64,000 bases of DNA, taken from NCBI GenBank assembly GCA_951406725.2, contig OX597817.1, positions 45,632,001 through 45,696,000 of the forward strand, given 5' to 3'. This DNA comes from Octopus vulgaris. Its lineage: Eukaryota. Each line of letters begins with the position of its first letter. Position 1 is the stretch's first letter. Made by a program: the position numbers. This document shows positions 45,501 to 57,500 of the stretch, one piece after another.

Positions 45501-48500
45501 TCTTTTTAACTATTCCAGTTCATTCAGTTGAAAATGTGTACCAACTAAATGTTGGTGGAGTCCTTCTTCGTTTCAGCTGTTCTATTCACGATATTCCGAC
45601 GGATTAAGTGCTGTGGGGACGAAATATTGCTTATAAATAATCGCAAATACTTAGGCAGCAAAAGCAGTTAGCATAAGTATGGTGATTCTTTATTACCCAC
45701 TAGGGGCGACACAGAGGTGGACACCAAGAGACATGGGGACATAGAACATTATAATTAAAATTTATGAAAATGAATTGTTAAACGAAAAAATGATAAAATG
45801 AAAGCGATACCAACGGCCCCGTCCGTCAGCATCACTTACCTGTCCTTTGTTTTTCATAGTCACTTGAATGTTCTTTGCCAATACGAATAAATTCCATATC
45901 CATTCTTACTCCGAAATACTCATCCATATTTTCCACGAATTCATCGCTCATTCTTATATCTTTCACCTCCCAATTCTCCCTTTCACACCTCACCATAAAC
46001 TCACCTATGTTCTTCTTTTCAATCACAGCATACCTAGTCTCACCAACTTCATACCATTTATACTCTTCCATTAGACTTTTAACTTCTTTCTGTTCAGTCA
46101 TAGTACAAATGTACGGCCTGATATCGAATTCAATCTCTTGTCTGTGTGTGTATTCTTTTTTTTTCTTTTGTTTTCTTGTTGGGGGGGAGCGGGTGGGTTC
46201 AATGTCTGCAGGAATAGTGTGGGACTCAGAGGGTGTGGGTGGTTTTGGGGTAGATTGGTGTTCCATGTTATTTTCTTTGCCTCGTATTCTTCTCTTCATC
46301 TTATTTCCAGCTTCCTTCCATTTCTGTGTATTCTCTTCCTCTTCTACTGTCTCCTTCTCCTCTGGTTTCTGCTTCTCTCTCTCTGGTTCGGAATCCATTT
46401 CTTTCCCTGGGGGAGGGCAGAAGGCTCTTATGTGACCCCTCAGGCCACACTTGTAACAACGTGGAGCTCTGCCCTCCACCCACACTCTCATGATCACGTC
46501 TCACAATCTGATGCTTTCCGCCAGGTCCACCAGTACCTCGGTCTCTGCCTGTACGTTCAGCTCCACTGTTACGCCTCTCCATCCCTCGGACTTAACCGAG
46601 GCATGGAGAATATCCACTTCCTCCTCGTGGCCGCTGATCACAGCCGCCACAATCCACTCTGCCTCCACGTTTGGTGGCACTCCCTCCACCCTTATTCGTG
46701 TAATCCTTCTGTTTAAATACGTAGGTAAGTGTTACCTTTTCTGACTTCACCGCCTTCGCCGCCATCTTCCTCGCTGCAGATTCACTTTTAAAATGTACCA
46801 CTACGGTTCCGTACTTGGATCCTCGAGTCAGAAAATTTATTTCCTCCTCAGTTCTTCTCAGGGCTTCCTCTATCCATTCCATGGTTACAACTTCTACCCT
46901 CTTCCATTCGTTTGCGAACACCCTGTAAATAATGGTCCTCTTATCATACCATTCTTTTCTCCTGGGTGTCGGTGATAGTTCCACCTCACCGCTTTCCTTT
47001 TTCATGTATTTCTGGTAACTTGGTAGCTTGGCCAAGTCGACCCCTTTCTCTTCCGCCTTCTTGGTTACACCGGCAGAGGTATAACCCAGCTTCTAATCCA
47101 ATTTCTTCGCTGCCATTTCTAGCTCATTCTCAGACGTAGACAAGTCTGATAAAGACTCAAAAACTCCAGCCTTTTCTTCCATCAGCTTCATTGTAATTGC
47201 CTGTTCCAGTTCCTCATCTGTCGTGGACAAGTCTGTTAGAGACTCATAGTCCATTTCCTTCTGTCTGACAGACCGAAAACGGCCGCCAAAACAGAAAAAG
47301 TGTAACGCGCAGAACGAGCGAAACGCGAAACCGCATCAACGCCGTTCACAATTTCCACAACAACAACAACGCTTTTTGTTCTTTTTTACCGAATTTTCAG
47401 GAGCCGAAAAAAACACAACCGACCAAATGGGTTAGCATAAGTATGGTGTTTCATAATTACCCACTAGGGGCGACACAGAGATGGACACCAAAAGACATGG
47501 GGACATAGAACATTTATAATTAAAATTTATGAAAAATGAATTGTTAAGTGAAAGAAAATGATATTATGAAAGCGATACCAACGGCCCCATCCGTCAGCAT
47601 CACTTACCTGTCCTTTGTTTTTCATCGTCCCTTGAATGTTCTTTGCCAATACGAATAAATTCCATATCCATTCTTACTCCGAAATACTCATCCATATTTT
47701 CCACGAATTCATCGCTCATTCTTATATCTTTCACCTCCCAATTCTCCCTTTCACACCTCACCATAAACTCACCTATGTTCTTCTTTTCAATCACAGCATA
47801 CCTAGTCTCACCAACTTCATACCATTTATACTCTTCCATTAGACTTTTAACTTCTTTCTGTTCAGTCATAGTACAAATGTACGGCCTGATATCGAATTCA
47901 ATCTCTTGTCTGTGTGTGTATTCTTTTTTTCTATTGTTTTCTTGTTGGGGGGAGCGGGTGGGTTCAATGTCTGCATGGATAGGGTGGGACTCAGAGGGTG
48001 TGGGTGGTTTTGGGGTAGATTGGTGTTCCATGTTATTTTCTTTTCCTCGTATTCTTCTCTTCCTCTTATTTCCAACTTCCTTCCATTTCTGTGTATTTTC
48101 TTCCTCTTCTACTGTCTCCTTCTCTTCTGGTTTCTGCTTCTCTCTCTCTGGTTCGGAATCCATTTCTTTCCCTGGGGGAGGGCAGAAGGCTCTTATGTGA
48201 CCCCTCAGGCCACACTTGTAACAACGTGGAGCTCTGCCCTCCACCCACACTCTCATGATCACGTCTCCCAATCTGATGCTTTCCGCCAGGTCCACCAGTA
48301 CCTCGTTCTCCGCCTGTACGTTCAGCTCCACTGTTACGCCTCTCCAGCCCTCGGACTTAACCGAGGCATGGAGAATATCTACTTCCTCCTCGTGGCCGCT
48401 GATCACAGCCGCCACAATCCACTCTGCCTCCACGTTTGGGGGCACTCCCTCCACCCTTATTCGTGTAATCCTTTTGTTTAAATACATAGGGAAAAGTGTT

Positions 48501-54500: not shown

Positions 54501-57500
54501 CAAATGGTAGCAGTGCTCGGTTGTGACATATTTCTTTATTACCCACCAGGGGGCGACACAGAGGGGGACACCACAAGACATGGGGACATAGAACATTATA
54601 ATTAAAATTTATGAAAATGAATTGTTAAACGAAAAAATGATAAAATGAAAGCGATACCAACGGCCCCGTCCGTCAGCATCACTTACCTGTCCTTTGTTTT
54701 TTATAGTCACTTGAATGTTCTTTGCCAATATGAATAAATTCCATATCCATTCTTACTCCGAAATACTCATTCATATTTTCCACGAATTCATCGCTCATTC
54801 TTATATCTTTCACCTCCCAATTCTCCCTTTCACACCTCCCCATAAACTCACCTATGTTCTTTTTTTCAATCACAGCATACCTAGTCTCTCCAACATCATA
54901 CCGTTTATACTCTTCCATTAGACTTTTAACTTCCCTCTGTTCAGTCATAGTACAAATGTACGGCCTGGGTTCGATTTCAATCTCTTGTGTGTGTGTATTC
55001 TTTTTTTTCTTTTGTTTTCTTGTTGGTGGGGAGCGGGTGGGTTCAATGTCTGCATGGATAGGGTGGGACTCAGAGGGTGTGGGAGGTTTTGGGGTAGATT
55101 GGAGTTCCATATTATTTTCTTTTTTTCCACATATTCTTCTCTTCCTCTTATTTCCAGCTTCCTTCCATTTCTGTGTATTCTCTTCCTCTTCTACTGTCTC
55201 CTTCTCCTCTGGTTTCTGCTTCTCTCCCTCTGGTTCGGAATCCATTTCTTTCCCTGGGGGAGGGCAGAAGGCTCTTATGTGACCCCTCAGGCCACACTTG
55301 TAACAACGTGGAGCCCTGCCCTCCACCCACACTCTCATGATCACTTCTCCCAGTCTGATGCTTTCCGTCAGGTCCACCAGTACCTCGGTCTCTGCCTGTA
55401 CGTTCAGCTCCACTGTTACGCCTCTCCAGCCCTCGGACTTAACCGAGGCATGGAGAATGTGCTCGGTTGTGACAGCTACGCTACGCTGTTTGGTGGTCAT
55501 TTATGCAATTTTATGGAGAGACTAGCTATTTTGACCCGTGCTTCGCTCGGGTCAAAATGGTGGTGTAGTTCTTTTGTGCGTGTTGTCTCCTTTTCTCATT
55601 CTTCTTTTGTTCTTTGCCTGGTTCTTTTTCTTATGTTTTTATTTTTTCTTCGTATTTTTCTTCTTTTTCTTCTTTCTCTTCTTCTACTGTTTCTTTTCTC
55701 CTTTTCCCCTATTCCTTATCATAGCAACCAAATGGTAGCCCCGAGCGACTTGCAACACCCCTCACAACATTGCCCACTCCATTTTACCCCCCCAGTGTAA
55801 ATTTAGCGCCAATCCGACCCCATCTACCGCCGCTTAAAATGAGACAAATAACCAAGAAAACAAACAACTTTTTCGCATTTCAGCTGTATTGATATTGATG
55901 AAAATCCAAAGAGTGTAATTCCCTTCAACAGACTATGTTTTCTGGGCAAGCAAACAACCTAAGTCTACTACTTTCTTTTTGTTCGGTATTTTGTTCCCGA
56001 TGATATTCCTCACAGAGTGATGAATCTATATATTTATGTATAATTTTGCAGCAATATGGTTGTTTGACCTTATTAAATTCAAGAAAGAATTCTGAAATAA
56101 TTTGAATATTTTTAATTTTAAAATTTGCTGTACAATGCTATATATGCATATATTTTCTCCTCGTCGTTTGTCTGTGTGTACGACTCTTCAATAGACAAAA
56201 CAAATTTTACGCTTGCACAAGTCACAGATTACAAAATAGCTGAAAGTTTTTGTTCGCTTTTGTTGTCTCTCAGTGTTATCTCCTGGTGTTATGCACTTTG
56301 ATCTATGTTCTTATTTTGTGCGTCTGTTGTTTGTGATGTCTGCTCATTCTTTAGTCGATATCTACTTGACTTTCCGAAATCTCGAAGGAATAGAAACTTG
56401 GCTTGTTTCGAACTTTGCATACAATTTGAATGTCTATTTATTTAGTGAATATGTCGTACGATCTGTATGAAGAATAGTTGAGATTTAAATTGTTTGTATT
56501 GGGAATGAAACGCTAGCACACTTACAAAACCAATAGACGTCTGAACAATTCAAATATTCTTTCAAATCTCTAGCACCGAATCGCAAGTTTCTTGCAGTTG
56601 TGATTAAATTGTTATTTAAATGTATTGAGTGAATGTGTAGTATTTTATCTAATATTATTTGTCCGTAAAATATAACCAAAATTCAAGGTATCCTGTTCTG
56701 AAATTATGTCACTTTCGTTCTTCATTTTAGAATTATATCTTAGCTTTTTATTTTCTAGATAAAGGTAACAATTTCTGTCTTCACAAAGTCAATTTATTTG
56801 ATAGGATTTTGCATTTTAGATATTTGCAAATTACGGTTTGGAGAGCTTCCAATATTGACACTTTTTGAAACTCATGAATCTATAAAATGTGGTGATATTA
56901 TTTCGTCTACTCTTTGATTCTCTGAAATAGTATTATTAGATTATTCCCTATCTTTGATTCATAAGAAAAAGGCCTTCGTTTCATGTTTCGTACGTAGCCT
57001 TACCTTAAAGCAGCAAAGATAGCCGAAAATGTGCTTTTTCCTCAGATTTCCTAATTTTACGACATTTTGTGGTAGTTATTGAACTTTTAATTTTCAAAAG
57101 CTGCGAGTAAAAACGTTGATCTAATCCTGTACAGTATGGAGGTCCATATTTTATATTCTAGAAGAATTATTATTAGTTTTCTAGCTATTTTTCATTTTTC
57201 CTAGAGATTTTTTCCTCAAAATTATCGTTTTTTCTATGGTTGGTGTTGTCGAACATTACTTTTATTTCTATCCAGACCATAATATATTTTCCAATGAACA
57301 GTACTGTAGAATAATATCTTTCTCGAATGCTTTAATTTGCATTTTCATAGCTATGTTTTATTGTCTCTGTGGAATTTAGCAGTGTAATAAACATTTGTCA
57401 AGAACACTTTCCAGGTGGTATGGTTAATTACTATATGTCTATATACATTTTTGCTGTTAGGCTCCATAGTTATTTGCAAATTGCTATCTTTGTCACCATT

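What the first reader, a model, noticed from the sequence alone, without database searches (positions are those of the whole stretch)
45667..55474. Tandem array of an RT-less, ORF1-only retroelement that demonstrably retrotransposes
Seen: six colinear units, each a ~175-nt CpG-rich 5' UTR, one ~1.42-kb ORF and a ~150-nt 3' UTR, with no RT or endonuclease. Unit 6 is 5'-truncated and bounded by a perfect 16-bp TSD; unit 1 is bounded by an 18-bp duplication. Known: 5' truncation plus TSD is the signature of target-primed reverse transcription, and ORF1-only elements exist (HAL1 'half-L1'; Drosophila HeT-A, which also forms head-to-tail arrays). Inference: this is a discrete non-autonomous family that keeps its own RNA-binding protein, borrows RT in trans and accumulates at one interstitial site. 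I do not recognise such a family from molluscs.
Basis: partly seen in the sequence, partly recalled or inferred. Interest (0 to 1): 0.88.

Follow-up and report, generated by a model that had tools for sequence, protein, structure and literature searches.

The report
Octopus ORF1-only retroposon in tandem array
This is a head-to-tail cluster of copies of a mobile element, most similar to Octopus sequences, that encodes only an RNA-binding protein, has no copying enzyme of its own, and carries the same 3' end as a nearby short repeat family, so it probably borrows that enzyme from another element.

Summary
The array is real. It holds five full units of about 1.77 kb and one 5'-truncated unit, all on the minus strand. 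I found no reverse transcriptase or endonuclease in the units or within about 9 kb on either side. A perfect 16-bp direct repeat flanks the truncated unit.

Three points need correcting:
- Only unit 2 has the intact 473-aa ORF.
- The 18-bp duplication recurs after all five full units, so it is a periodic spacer.
- Tandem copies of this family also occur elsewhere. Ten Octopus vulgaris gene models on nine chromosome-size contigs carry two or three copies.

New evidence supports the retroposon reading:
- The protein models as two RRM-like domains plus a CCHC knuckle.
- Family fragments lie on 17 O. vulgaris contigs and fall into subfamilies. Unit 6 belongs to a different subfamily from its neighbours.
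- The last 40 nt or so of every unit match the 3' tail of a SINE-like family in the window and end where that tail ends.

The RT partner was not found. How the array grew is unresolved. "Demonstrably retrotransposes" overstates one insertion footprint. This is a new variant of a known kind (HAL1, HeT-A-like) and is moderately interesting.

The parts
45667..45684 (-). 18-nt spacer A (gene orientation CACCATACTTATGCTAAC), copy following unit 1; the last array base is 45667
   Evidence: Exact 18-mer found 5 times in the window. It lies beyond the shared tail terminus.
45685..47430 (-). Unit 1, full length and degenerate (2 stops, one 2-bp deletion). Its 3' UTR is of the u6 type and carries AATAAA.
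   Evidence: (family D13, 100% identity to u6 over 51 nt)
47431..47448 (-). Spacer A between unit 2 and unit 1
47449..49199 (-). Unit 2, the only unit with an intact ORF
47600..49021 (-). Intact 473-aa ORF (stop codon included)
48242..48772 (-). Residues about 84-260: two RRM-like domains
   Evidence: The AlphaFold2 model built with alignment A1 has block-mean pLDDT of 91-98 for residues 71-280. The best Foldseek PDB matches are tandem-RRM proteins, E from 1.9e-5.
48185..48226 (-). CCHC zinc knuckle CYKCGLRGHIRAFC (residues 266-279)
   Evidence: Pfam zf-CCHC E=0.075, below the curated cut-off. 20 of 132 relatives hit zf-CCHC. The A1 profile hits retroviral nucleocapsid knuckles in the PDB at E=2.4e-5.
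47609..47869 (-). C-terminal domain (residues 385-471). It is the part most often captured in Octopus gene models. Among the hits I looked at, no relatives were seen outside close Octopus copies.
   Evidence: The ESM Atlas gave no usable hit.
47600..47610 (-). CAG|GTAAGTGA: consensus 5' splice-donor sequence overlapping the stop codon. Present in all 6 units.
   Evidence: 6 matches against 0.03 expected. At least 21 of 23 single-copy gene models diverge right after ...EKQRT with a residue compatible with a phase-1 donor.
49200..49217 (-). Spacer A between unit 3 and unit 2
49218..50970 (-). Unit 3. ORF broken only by +1 in a C run and +2 in an A run, which exposes a TAG.
50971..50988 (-). Spacer A between unit 4 and unit 3
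50989..52739 (-). Unit 4. ORF broken by +1 in the A run.
52740..52757 (-). Spacer A between unit 5 and unit 4
52758..54507 (-). Unit 5, full length, with several frameshifts
54508..54512 (-). TGCTA (gene orientation) just upstream of unit 5. It is the only part of spacer A present at the outer 5' edge.
54513..54528 (.). 16-bp direct repeat B, 3'-side copy. 12 of its bases form an inverted repeat with the 5' end of unit 5 (54491-54502 / 54514-54525, 92% complementary).
   Evidence: (family D15)
54529..55458 (-). Unit 6: 5'-truncated copy starting at codon ~216, with its remaining ORF open. Different subfamily from its neighbours. 3' terminus ...GTGGGTAATAAAGAAATA.
54530..54569 (-). Tail of about 40 nt shared with the SINE-like family, shown here for unit 6. 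The equivalent segments are 45686-45726, 47449-47486, 49218-49256, 50989-51026 and 52758-52795.
   Evidence: A profile built from SINE-like tails alone finds all 6 units, E from 6.2e-5 to 3.4e-3, aligned to the end of the profile. Alignment A2.
55459..55474 (.). 16-bp direct repeat B, 5'-side copy
44636..45195 (-). About three head-to-tail 184-nt units of the SINE-like family that shares the 3' tail. It is not part of the array but bears on the mechanism.
   Evidence: (family D12)

Best explanation
The array is made of copies of a non-autonomous, LINE-dependent retroposon family whose closest database matches are Octopus proteins. It keeps an ORF1p-type RNA-binding protein and has no RT or endonuclease.

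Anatomy, which is shown:
- a 178-nt CpG-rich leader;
- a 473-aa ORF with N-terminal helices, two RRM-like domains, one CCHC knuckle, a charged linker and a C-terminal domain so far seen only in Octopus copies;
- a 151-nt 3' UTR whose last 40 nt or so match, and end together with, the tail of a SINE-like family.

Mechanism, which is inferred:
- The leader acts as an internal Pol II promoter.
- The protein coats its own RNA.
- An unidentified autonomous LINE supplies RT and endonuclease, which recognise the shared tail and copy the RNA into a nicked target. This gives 5' truncation and a target-site duplication.

Unit 6 is one such insertion. It comes from a different subfamily and landed 5 bp upstream of the older units.

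The array is composite, with at least three lineages: u1, u2-5 and u6. It grew either by repeated insertion next to resident copies or by RT template jumping. The near-identical units 2-4 were added by recent local duplication or joined as a concatemer.
For: Protein:
- With 132 aligned relatives, the AlphaFold2 model has block-mean pLDDT of 91-98 for residues 71-280.
- The best Foldseek PDB hits are tandem-RRM proteins: IMP3 RRM12 at E=1.9e-5, then U2AF65, Sxl and HuR.
- The knuckle has the form C-X2-C-X4-H-X4-C.
- The ESM Atlas places it among CCHC proteins and ZCCHC3-like clusters at scores of 0.90-0.92.

No RT or endonuclease.

Dispersal:
- The three searches returned 43 proteins. 42 are named Octopus vulgaris and one O. 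sinensis.
- They lie on 17 distinct O. vulgaris contig lengths of 41-226 Mb.
- 23 single-copy models continue after ...EKQRT into 23 different sequences.
- None of their non-family parts map in this window.

Subfamilies:
- In the 87-aa C-terminal domain, u6 differs by 2-3 residues from 12 copies elsewhere. It differs by 7 from u1 and by 9 from u2.
- The u2-5 variant (R, D) recurs in P0163 and P0166.

Selection:
- pN/pS is 0.18-0.24 among u1, u2-4 and u5. Binomial p ranges from 1e-5 to 5e-9.
- The differences therefore arose in coding-competent lineages.

Insertion footprint:
- A perfect 16-bp repeat sits exactly at both edges of the truncated u6.
- The retained ORF of u6 is open.

Shared tail:
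- A SINE-only profile finds all 6 units at E from 6e-5 to 3e-3. The reciprocal profile finds 4 SINE tails at E from 3e-5 to 0.04.
- The 17-mer GTGGGTARTAAAGAAAT matches u6 and two SINE copies with no mismatch, against 0.04 matches expected.
- The end of u6 coincides with the end of the SINE tail.

Literature (passages read):
- SINE tails shared with partner LINEs, and a poly(A) signal just before the terminus in Pol II LINEs (PMC4758252).
- HAL1 encodes only ORF1p (PMC5753468).
- ORF1-only telomeric Jockey-clade elements depend on ORF2 from other families (PMC13534243).
Against: - No autonomous partner with this tail or this ORF1 was found. The window holds none, and no eukaryotic genome DNA could be searched.
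- Only one TSD-bounded copy was seen. No empty site or polymorphism was examined.
- There is no poly(A) or simple-repeat tail at any junction.
- An insertion 5 bp from a copy of its own family is improbable unless insertion is targeted. That is not shown.
- Units 1-5 share identical junctions, and units 2-4 are 99.6-99.8% identical. Plain DNA-level duplication fits this.
- No curated LINE ORF1 family matched. Pfam gave only a sub-threshold zf-CCHC hit. None of the 43 PDB sequences matched by the A1 profile at E<=1 is a LINE ORF1p. Foldseek TM-scores are modest, about 0.4 normalised to the target.
- The evidence for dispersal rests on predicted gene models, which favour the C-terminal exon.
- No exact TSD of 7 bp or more was found for the three SINE-like copy ends tested (b, c1, c2; the one 7-mer found lay inside the element).
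Confidence: 0.65

Rival explanations
1. This is a host gene cluster. A domesticated ORF1/gag-like (ZCCHC3-like) gene was amplified in place by unequal crossing-over. The differences between units reflect selection on functional paralogues. The fragments elsewhere are segmental duplicates or ordinary retrocopies.
For: - pN/pS is 0.18-0.24 between units.
- One ORF is intact, and two more are broken only in homopolymer runs that could be assembly errors.
- All four internal junctions are identical, and the central units are nearly identical.
- ZCCHC3-like clusters are among the ESM Atlas look-alikes at 0.90.
Against: - u1 and u5 carry stops and several frameshifts outside homopolymer runs.
- Fragments lie on 17 chromosome-size contigs, with subfamily structure.
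- u6 is closer to 12 copies elsewhere than to its neighbours and has a perfect 16-bp duplication.
- The 3' end is a SINE-type tail that ends where the SINE tail ends.
- u1 and u2 differ by 4 substitutions and 3 indels in about 62 nt of 3' UTR, where u1 is identical to u6. That is uneven for decay in place.
Confidence: 0.12
2. The family is non-autonomous but is mobilised by a non-LINE RT, most likely a Penelope-like element. Insertions of such elements typically form partial tandems, with a 5'-truncated copy ahead of a full copy, and multicopy head-to-tail arrays.
For: - Passages of PMC8557442 describe Penelope-like element (PLE) insertions as highly 5'-truncated and often in partial tandems. 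They describe non-autonomous relatives with multicopy head-to-tail insertions, short extra tails at one end, retention of introns, and Naiad families in Octopus spp.
- Here a truncated copy precedes full copies.
- Tandem copies recur at other loci.
- The SINE-like relatives are also head-to-tail.
- A splice-donor sequence is conserved in all units.
Against: - The truncated copy has its own 16-bp duplication and belongs to another subfamily, so it is a separate event and not a pseudo-LTR.
- No hammerhead ribozyme or any other Rfam family was found in the window. Naiads also lack canonical ones, according to the same paper.
- The protein has a LINE ORF1p-type architecture, which is not one described for Penelope-like elements in the passages read.
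- No inverted truncated copy is present.
Confidence: 0.1
3. This is a locally deleted autonomous LINE. Full-length family members elsewhere carry an ORF2 after this ORF1, and the RT-less form exists only in arrays made by DNA duplication of one deleted copy.
For: - One of 23 single-copy models (P0004) continues into a stretch with a weak, sub-threshold match to Pfam Exo_endo_phos_2, E=0.12.
- The splice-donor sequence at the stop codon could once have joined ORF1 to a downstream ORF.
- A 52%-identical Octopus paralogue family exists (P0008).
Against: - u6 is a separately inserted copy in which the ORF end, the 151-nt UTR and the canonical tail are contiguous. So it was the RT-less form that moved.
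- 22 of 23 models continue into unrelated sequences.
- None of the 21 relatives scanned or the 132 scanned has an RT or endonuclease domain.
- The "longer" search found one protein, which has no RT.
Confidence: 0.08

Closest known systems
HAL1 (half-L1) of mammals
   Same: A non-autonomous LINE derivative that encodes only ORF1p and depends on RT supplied in trans (PMC5753468, passages). It is interstitial and dispersed, with 5'-truncated copies.
   Different: HAL1 is recognisably L1-derived, and L1 insertions carry poly(A) tails (recalled). Here no parent LINE is identified, and the protein has two RRM-like domains, a CCHC knuckle and an extra C-terminal domain. The 3' end is a specific tail shared with a SINE-like family, and copies tend to lie head-to-tail.
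HeT-A and other ORF1-only telomeric Jockey-clade elements of Drosophila
   Same: They are ORF1-only and depend on ORF2 from other families. They form head-to-tail arrays in which neighbours belong to different lineages (PMC13534243, passages).
   Different: Those arrays lie at chromosome ends, joined through poly(A) tails (the poly(A) joining is recalled). Here the array is flanked by ordinary sequence on both sides (about 45 kb and 8.5 kb). There are no telomere repeats and no poly(A) at the junctions. Similar tandems sit on at least nine other contigs, inside or beside genes.
SINEs with a LINE-derived 3' tail (stringent-type SINE/LINE pairs); LP-SINEs of molluscs
   Same: A shared, co-terminal 3' tail serves as the likely handle for the partner RT. 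A poly(A)-signal hexamer lies just before the terminus, as described for Pol II-type elements (PMC4758252, passages).
   Different: This element is 1.75 kb long, encodes a protein, has no small-RNA head, and shows coding constraint.
LINE ORF1 proteins with RRM plus CCHC knuckle; vertebrate ZCCHC3
   Same: RRM-like domains followed by a CCHC knuckle. ZCCHC3-like clusters appear among the ESM Atlas look-alikes. The "type I" ORF1p classification is recalled from Khazina and Weichenrieder 2009, which I did not read here.
   Different: No sequence-level match to Pfam RBD_ZCCHC3 domains or to L1 ORF1p structures. There is an additional C-terminal domain of about 90 aa with no detected relatives outside close Octopus copies.

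Membership tests
ORF1-only non-autonomous LINE derivative (HAL1 / HeT-A kind) | Encodes an ORF1p-type nucleic-acid-binding protein | tested here: met
   Two RRM-like domains and a CCHC knuckle. The architecture matches, but no named LINE ORF1 family was matched.
ORF1-only non-autonomous LINE derivative (HAL1 / HeT-A kind) | Lacks RT and endonuclease | tested here: met
   The unit is 1.75 kb, of which 1.42 kb is this ORF. No RT or endonuclease Pfam hit among 125 + 13 flanking and window ORFs.
ORF1-only non-autonomous LINE derivative (HAL1 / HeT-A kind) | Dispersed copies with 5' truncation, a common 3' end and TSDs of different sequence | tested here: inconclusive
   One such copy is in the window (u6). 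Dispersal over 17 contigs was seen only through protein models. Their DNA ends could not be read.
ORF1-only non-autonomous LINE derivative (HAL1 / HeT-A kind) | Identifiable autonomous parent or partner sharing ORF1, UTRs or 3' tail | not testable with these tools
   No partner is present in the window. No eukaryotic genome, Repbase or Dfam search was available.
Telomeric head-to-tail retrotransposon array (HeT-A/TART type) | Arrays at chromosome termini, with units joined through poly(A) | tested here: not met
   Ordinary sequence lies on both sides of the array. There are no TTAGGG runs. Junctions are an 18-nt spacer without poly(A).
SINE | Small-RNA-derived Pol III head, non-coding, under about 600 bp | tested here: not met
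   No tRNA or Rfam hit. The unit is 1.75 kb and contains a constrained ORF. Only the tail is SINE-like.
Penelope-like element, non-autonomous derivative | Pseudo-LTR made by a truncated copy from the same insertion event; hammerhead ribozyme in canonical clades; often an inverted 5' copy | tested here: not met
   The truncated copy has its own TSD and belongs to another subfamily. No Rfam hit. No inverted copy, only a 12-nt inverted repeat at the 5' end of u5.
Host tandem gene family (domesticated ORF1, ZCCHC3-like) | Intact paralogues at a conserved locus, not dispersed as truncated fragments | tested here: not met
   5 of 6 units are broken or truncated. Fragments lie on 17 contigs. Synteny across species could not be tested.

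The most novel reading that the evidence does not exclude
This is an ORF1-only retroposon family that builds head-to-tail arrays at many interstitial sites. The RT it shares with a SINE-like family either jumps from one RNA to the next or re-targets the edge of resident copies. Its lineage-specific C-terminal domain ends in a built-in consensus splice donor, so insertions act as portable first exons that fuse this domain to host genes.
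Probability: 0.25. Interest if true: 0.7.

Novelty: new variant of a known kind. Interest (0 to 1): 0.5.

Why it matters
ORF1-only LINE derivatives are documented mainly in mammals (HAL1) and at Drosophila telomeres. [quoted passage not shown]

An interstitial mollusc family of this kind would show that the strategy of keeping the RNA-binding protein and borrowing the RT evolves more widely. Three features set it apart: a SINE-type tail, coding constraint and recurrent head-to-tail clustering.

It would also offer a handle on two questions. The first is which LINE drives repeat expansion in octopus genomes. The second is how RT template jumping or self-targeting builds arrays.

The conserved splice donor and the many chimeric gene models also matter for Octopus genome annotation. 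Dozens of "hypothetical proteins" appear to be fragments of this element.

Tried and rejected
- **18-mer as a microhomology junction.** I first read the 18-mer as the junction of a simple tandem duplication by microhomology, because TGCTA is shared with the flank of u5. The observed junction has two extra bases, so the fit is inexact.
- **18-mer as the element's 3' end.** The SINE-like tail and u6 end 17-18 nt earlier. Its status is left open: TSD regenerated at each insertion, 3' read-through, or 5' extension.
- **u6 as a tandem duplication plus deletion.** I considered this origin for u6 and its 16-mers. I rejected it as the main reading because u6 carries subfamily residues shared with 12 copies elsewhere.
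- **Single-sequence AlphaFold2 model.** Mean pLDDT was 38.7, so it was unusable.
- **Pfam on the query.** Only sub-threshold hits to Ephrin, DUF4833 and zf-CCHC. I regard the Ephrin hit as chance.
- **A1 profile against the PDB.** Only CCHC knuckles matched. No LINE ORF1p was found.
- **ESM Atlas on the C-terminal domain.** No usable hit.
- **P0004 tail.** No PDB hit. The only Pfam hit was Exo_endo_phos_2 at E=0.12, so my impression of an APE fragment remains a weak lead.
- **Other sequence scans.**
  - Rfam, tRNA and telomere-repeat scans were empty.
  - The tail profile found no further tails, and so no partner LINE, in the window.
  - No exact TSD of 7 bp or more was found for three SINE-like copy ends.
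  - Short inverted repeats at the two array edges are 10-12 nt. By my own estimate they are near chance level.
The organisms of the distant relatives P0015-P0154 therefore stay unknown.
- **Literature.**
  - The searches did not turn up a description of this family. For most papers I saw only listings.
  - I read passages of PMC9115989, which reports single-ORF RTE LINEs in Octopus and no ORF1-only element.
  - Repbase and Dfam could not be consulted.
  - No supplements were read.

Full report
**1. What is there**

Window 45667-55474 holds a head-to-tail array with a period of 1764-1775 bp. The coding strand is the minus strand.

In gene orientation, running from high to low coordinates, the order is:
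- flank;
- 16-mer B (55474-55459);
- unit 6, 5'-truncated (55458-54529);
- 16-mer B (54528-54513);
- TGCTA (54512-54508);
- unit 5 (54507-52758);
- then four more full units, u4 to u1.

Each full unit is followed by the same 18-nt spacer A, which reads CACCATACTTATGCTAAC in gene orientation. On the plus strand A starts at 45667, 47431, 49200, 50971 and 52740.

Relative to unit 2, identities are 96.5% (u1), 99.6% (u3), 99.8% (u4), 95.3% (u5) and 92.8% (u6).

A full unit has three parts:
- a 178-nt leader with CpG observed/expected 1.91, against 0.62 in the ORF and 0.89 in the rest of the window;
- a 1422-bp ORF;
- a 151-nt 3' UTR.

Only unit 2 has the intact 473-aa ORF (47600-49021). The state of the other units is as follows:

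| Unit | State of the ORF |
|---|---|
| u1 | two stops and a 2-bp deletion |
| u3, u4 | differ from u2 essentially by the lengths of one C run and one A run; this breaks the frame but could be assembly error |
| u5 | several frameshifts |
| u6 | truncated, but the remaining 259 codons are open |

No RT or endonuclease is present:
- None of 125 ORFs of 50 aa or more in the 9.7 kb and 8.6 kb flanks hits such a Pfam family.
- None of the 13 ORFs of 130 aa or more elsewhere in the window does. Only a mariner-type transposase fragment appears, at 21711-22232.
- There are no assembly gaps.

**2. The protein**

- Pfam gives only a sub-threshold zf-CCHC hit. The motif CYKCGLRGHIRAFC is a canonical C-X2-C-X4-H-X4-C knuckle.
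- An exhaustive HMMER search found 365 relatives at E<=1e-3 and 85 at E<=1e-10. The distant ones, at 25-40% identity, cover residues of about 60-330.
- None of the 21 relatives scanned carries an RT or endonuclease domain. Nor does any of the 132 members of alignment A1 scanned. Among the A1 members, 20 of 132 hit zf-CCHC.
- With alignment A1 the AlphaFold2 model has block-mean pLDDT of 91-98 for residues 71-280. The single-sequence model was useless.
- The best Foldseek PDB matches are two-RRM proteins: IMP3 RRM12 at E=1.9e-5, then U2AF65, Sxl and HuR. Target-normalised TM-scores are about 0.3-0.4.
- The A1 profile hits retroviral nucleocapsid knuckles in the PDB at E=2.4e-5. It hits no L1 ORF1p.
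- ESM Atlas look-alikes are CCHC proteins and ZCCHC3-like clusters at scores of 0.90-0.92.

The core is therefore RRM-RRM-CCHC. From memory, this is the architecture of "type I" LINE ORF1 proteins (Khazina and Weichenrieder 2009, not read here).

Residues 385-471 form an extra C-terminal domain. Among the 150 listed hits, its relatives are close Octopus copies, plus two at 45-58% identity. The ESM Atlas gave nothing usable for it.

**3. The family elsewhere**

Three word-indexed searches returned 43 proteins. 42 are named Octopus vulgaris and one O. sinensis. They lie on 17 different O. vulgaris contig lengths of 41-226 Mb.

Nearly all are gene models that start at M385 and run to ...EKQRT. 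That is exactly where every unit in the window has CAG|GTAAGTGA, a consensus 5' splice-donor sequence overlapping the stop codon (6 matches against 0.03 expected).

- 23 single-copy models continue into 23 different sequences. These include HAUS1-like and Hydin-like gene parts.
- None of those foreign parts maps in this window. They are therefore other loci.
- Ten models contain two or three C-terminal domains in series, on nine contigs. Same-orientation neighbouring copies are thus recurrent. This contradicts "one interstitial site".

**4. Subfamilies**

45 C-terminal domains were taken from those models.
- u6 has the R-R-D-G-N(-H) signature. It differs by only 2-3 of 87 residues from 12 copies elsewhere. 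It differs by 7 from u1 and by 9 from u2.
- u1-u5 carry the K-W-E-V-D signature.
- The R/D variant of u2-u5 recurs in P0163 and P0166.
- Adjacent copies in P0158, P0006 and P0007 also belong to different subfamilies.

Within the array:
- pN/pS among u1, u2-4 and u5 is 0.18-0.24, with pS of 0.07-0.10. Binomial p ranges from 1e-5 to 5e-9. The differences therefore arose in coding-competent lineages.
- Pairs that include u6 are not significantly constrained, except u2-u6 (p=0.045).
- In a stretch of about 62 nt of 3' UTR, u1 differs from u2 by 4 substitutions and 3 indels. In the same stretch u1 is identical to u6 ([D13], 8).

Taken together, the array contains at least three lineages: u1, u2-5 and u6.

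**5. The insertion footprint**

- The 16-mer occurs exactly twice in the window, at both edges of u6.
- u6 starts at codon ~216.
- It ends at ...GTGGGTAATAAAGAAATA.

**6. A shared 3' tail (new)**

A sensitive self-search showed that the end of the 3' UTR resembles a 184-nt repeat about 470 bp downstream of the array. That repeat belongs to a SINE-like family with copies at:
- 33382-33563;
- 37687-38100;
- 44636-45195;
- fragments at 35802-35887 and 3322-3387.

The evidence for a shared tail is:
- In alignment A2 the last 40-45 nt are shared.
- A profile built from the six SINE-like tails alone finds all six units. E is 6.2e-5 for u6, 8.9e-5 for u1 and about 3e-3 for u2-5. The matches align to the end of the profile and end at the unit termini.
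- The reciprocal profile finds four SINE-like tails, at E from 3.3e-5 to 0.037.
- The terminal 17-mer matches u6 and two SINE-like copies without mismatch.

Three things follow:
- The 3' end of u6 is the canonical terminus.
- Spacer A is not part of the tail.
- The element carries the kind of tail by which SINEs are thought to recruit a partner LINE (PMC4758252, passages).

The hexamer AATAAA just before the terminus (in u1 and u6) matches what that paper notes for Pol II LINEs ending in short repeats.

The SINE-like copies also lie head-to-tail. Neighbours there are only 77-82% identical, although one of them is 96.6% identical to a copy 6.7 kb away. Head-to-tail clustering of unlike copies may therefore be a property of the shared machinery.

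**7. How the array grew (unresolved)**

Reading A is repeated insertion at the edge of resident copies, with spacer A as a TSD regenerated each time.
- For: the mixed lineages.
- Against: at the outer 5' edge only TGCTA of A is present.

Reading B is concatenation by RT template jumping within one event.
- For: passages of PMC11371274 report that R2 proteins jump from full-length cDNA to further templates. They also report head-to-tail tandem transgene junctions and snap-back 5' junctions.
- For: a 12-nt inverted repeat joins the 5' end of u5 to the 16-mer. By my estimate this has about a 6% chance per 241-bp region, so it is only suggestive.

Reading C is unequal crossing-over of [unit + A].
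- This is the simplest account for u2-u4.
- It needs gene conversion or selection to explain section 4.

I favour a mixture of these.

**8. Comparison with known elements**

- The closest kinds are HAL1 (PMC5753468, passages) and the ORF1-only telomeric Jockey-clade elements (PMC13534243, passages).
- The family is not telomeric and has no poly(A) junctions.
- A Penelope-like mobiliser is a live rival, because such elements make partial tandems and Naiads occur in Octopus (PMC8557442, passages). However, u6 is a separate event with its own duplication, and no ribozyme was found.
- PMC9115989 (passages) reports single-ORF RTE LINEs and a Dong element in Octopus. It reports no ORF1-only family.

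**9. Limits**

- No eukaryotic genome DNA, Repbase or Dfam could be searched. The two closed collections were not used, and the genome collection on offer holds only bacteria and archaea.
- Dispersal is inferred from predicted proteins.
- The species of the window was not given. The closest proteins are from Octopus vulgaris.
- No supplements were read.

**Verdict**

This is a real and partly mis-described array. It is best explained as an ORF1-only, SINE-tailed, LINE-dependent retroposon family that tends to cluster head-to-tail. It is a new variant of a known kind, with moderate interest.

Noticed in passing
44636-45195; 37687-38100; 33382-33563; fragments 35802-35887 and 3322-3387: A SINE-like family. 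Two copies carry a head of about 50 nt, while others are headless 184-nt units that all start at the same position. It lies in head-to-tail groups whose members are only 77-82% identical to each other. It shares its 3' tail with the ORF1 element. From memory its body resembles a CORE-SINE such as octopus OR1, but this was not tested.
   Followed up: partly
45832-45842, 47600-47610, 49369-49379, 51140-51150, 52909-52919, 54679-54689 (minus strand): A consensus 5' splice-donor sequence, CAG|GTAAGT, overlaps the stop codon in all six units. Dozens of O. vulgaris gene models use the C-terminal domain as a first exon joined to unrelated exons, including HAUS1-like and Hydin-like ones. Whether the splicing is real or a prediction artefact is unknown.
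   Followed up: partly
21711-22232 (minus strand): An ORF fragment with a mariner-type transposase match (PF01359, E=3.1e-5), just above the curated cut-off.
   Followed up: no
55528-55558: A 14-nt hairpin, 93% complementary with a 3-nt loop, about 55 bp upstream of the array. Its first arm (CCATTTTGACC in gene orientation) loosely resembles the 5' end of the unit (CCATTTGGTCGG).
   Followed up: no
54491-54502 / 54514-54525: A 12-nt inverted repeat between the 5' end of unit 5 and the 16-mer that later became the duplication around unit 6. It may be a snap-back trace or chance.
   Followed up: partly
45860-55800, plus strand: Long antisense ORFs of 141-248 aa run opposite every unit. They are most likely a by-product of the purine-rich sense strand (GC skew about -0.22 to -0.27, AT skew about -0.2 on the plus strand).
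   Followed up: no
48830-48994 (residues ~10-65 of the ORF): The N-terminus contains an internal duplication, SLTDLSTTDEELEQA... / SLSDLSTSEKELEMA..., predicted to be helical. An O. sinensis model (P0037) fuses this part to an integrase-like fragment annotated K02A2.6-like.
   Followed up: no
36792-36995 (plus strand): A 68-aa ORF with a weak, sub-threshold match to the nuclear hormone receptor ligand-binding domain (E=0.0076). It could be a host exon or chance.
   Followed up: no
40307-40468: Adjacent ATC and ATT microsatellites, about 27 and 39 repeats.
   Followed up: no
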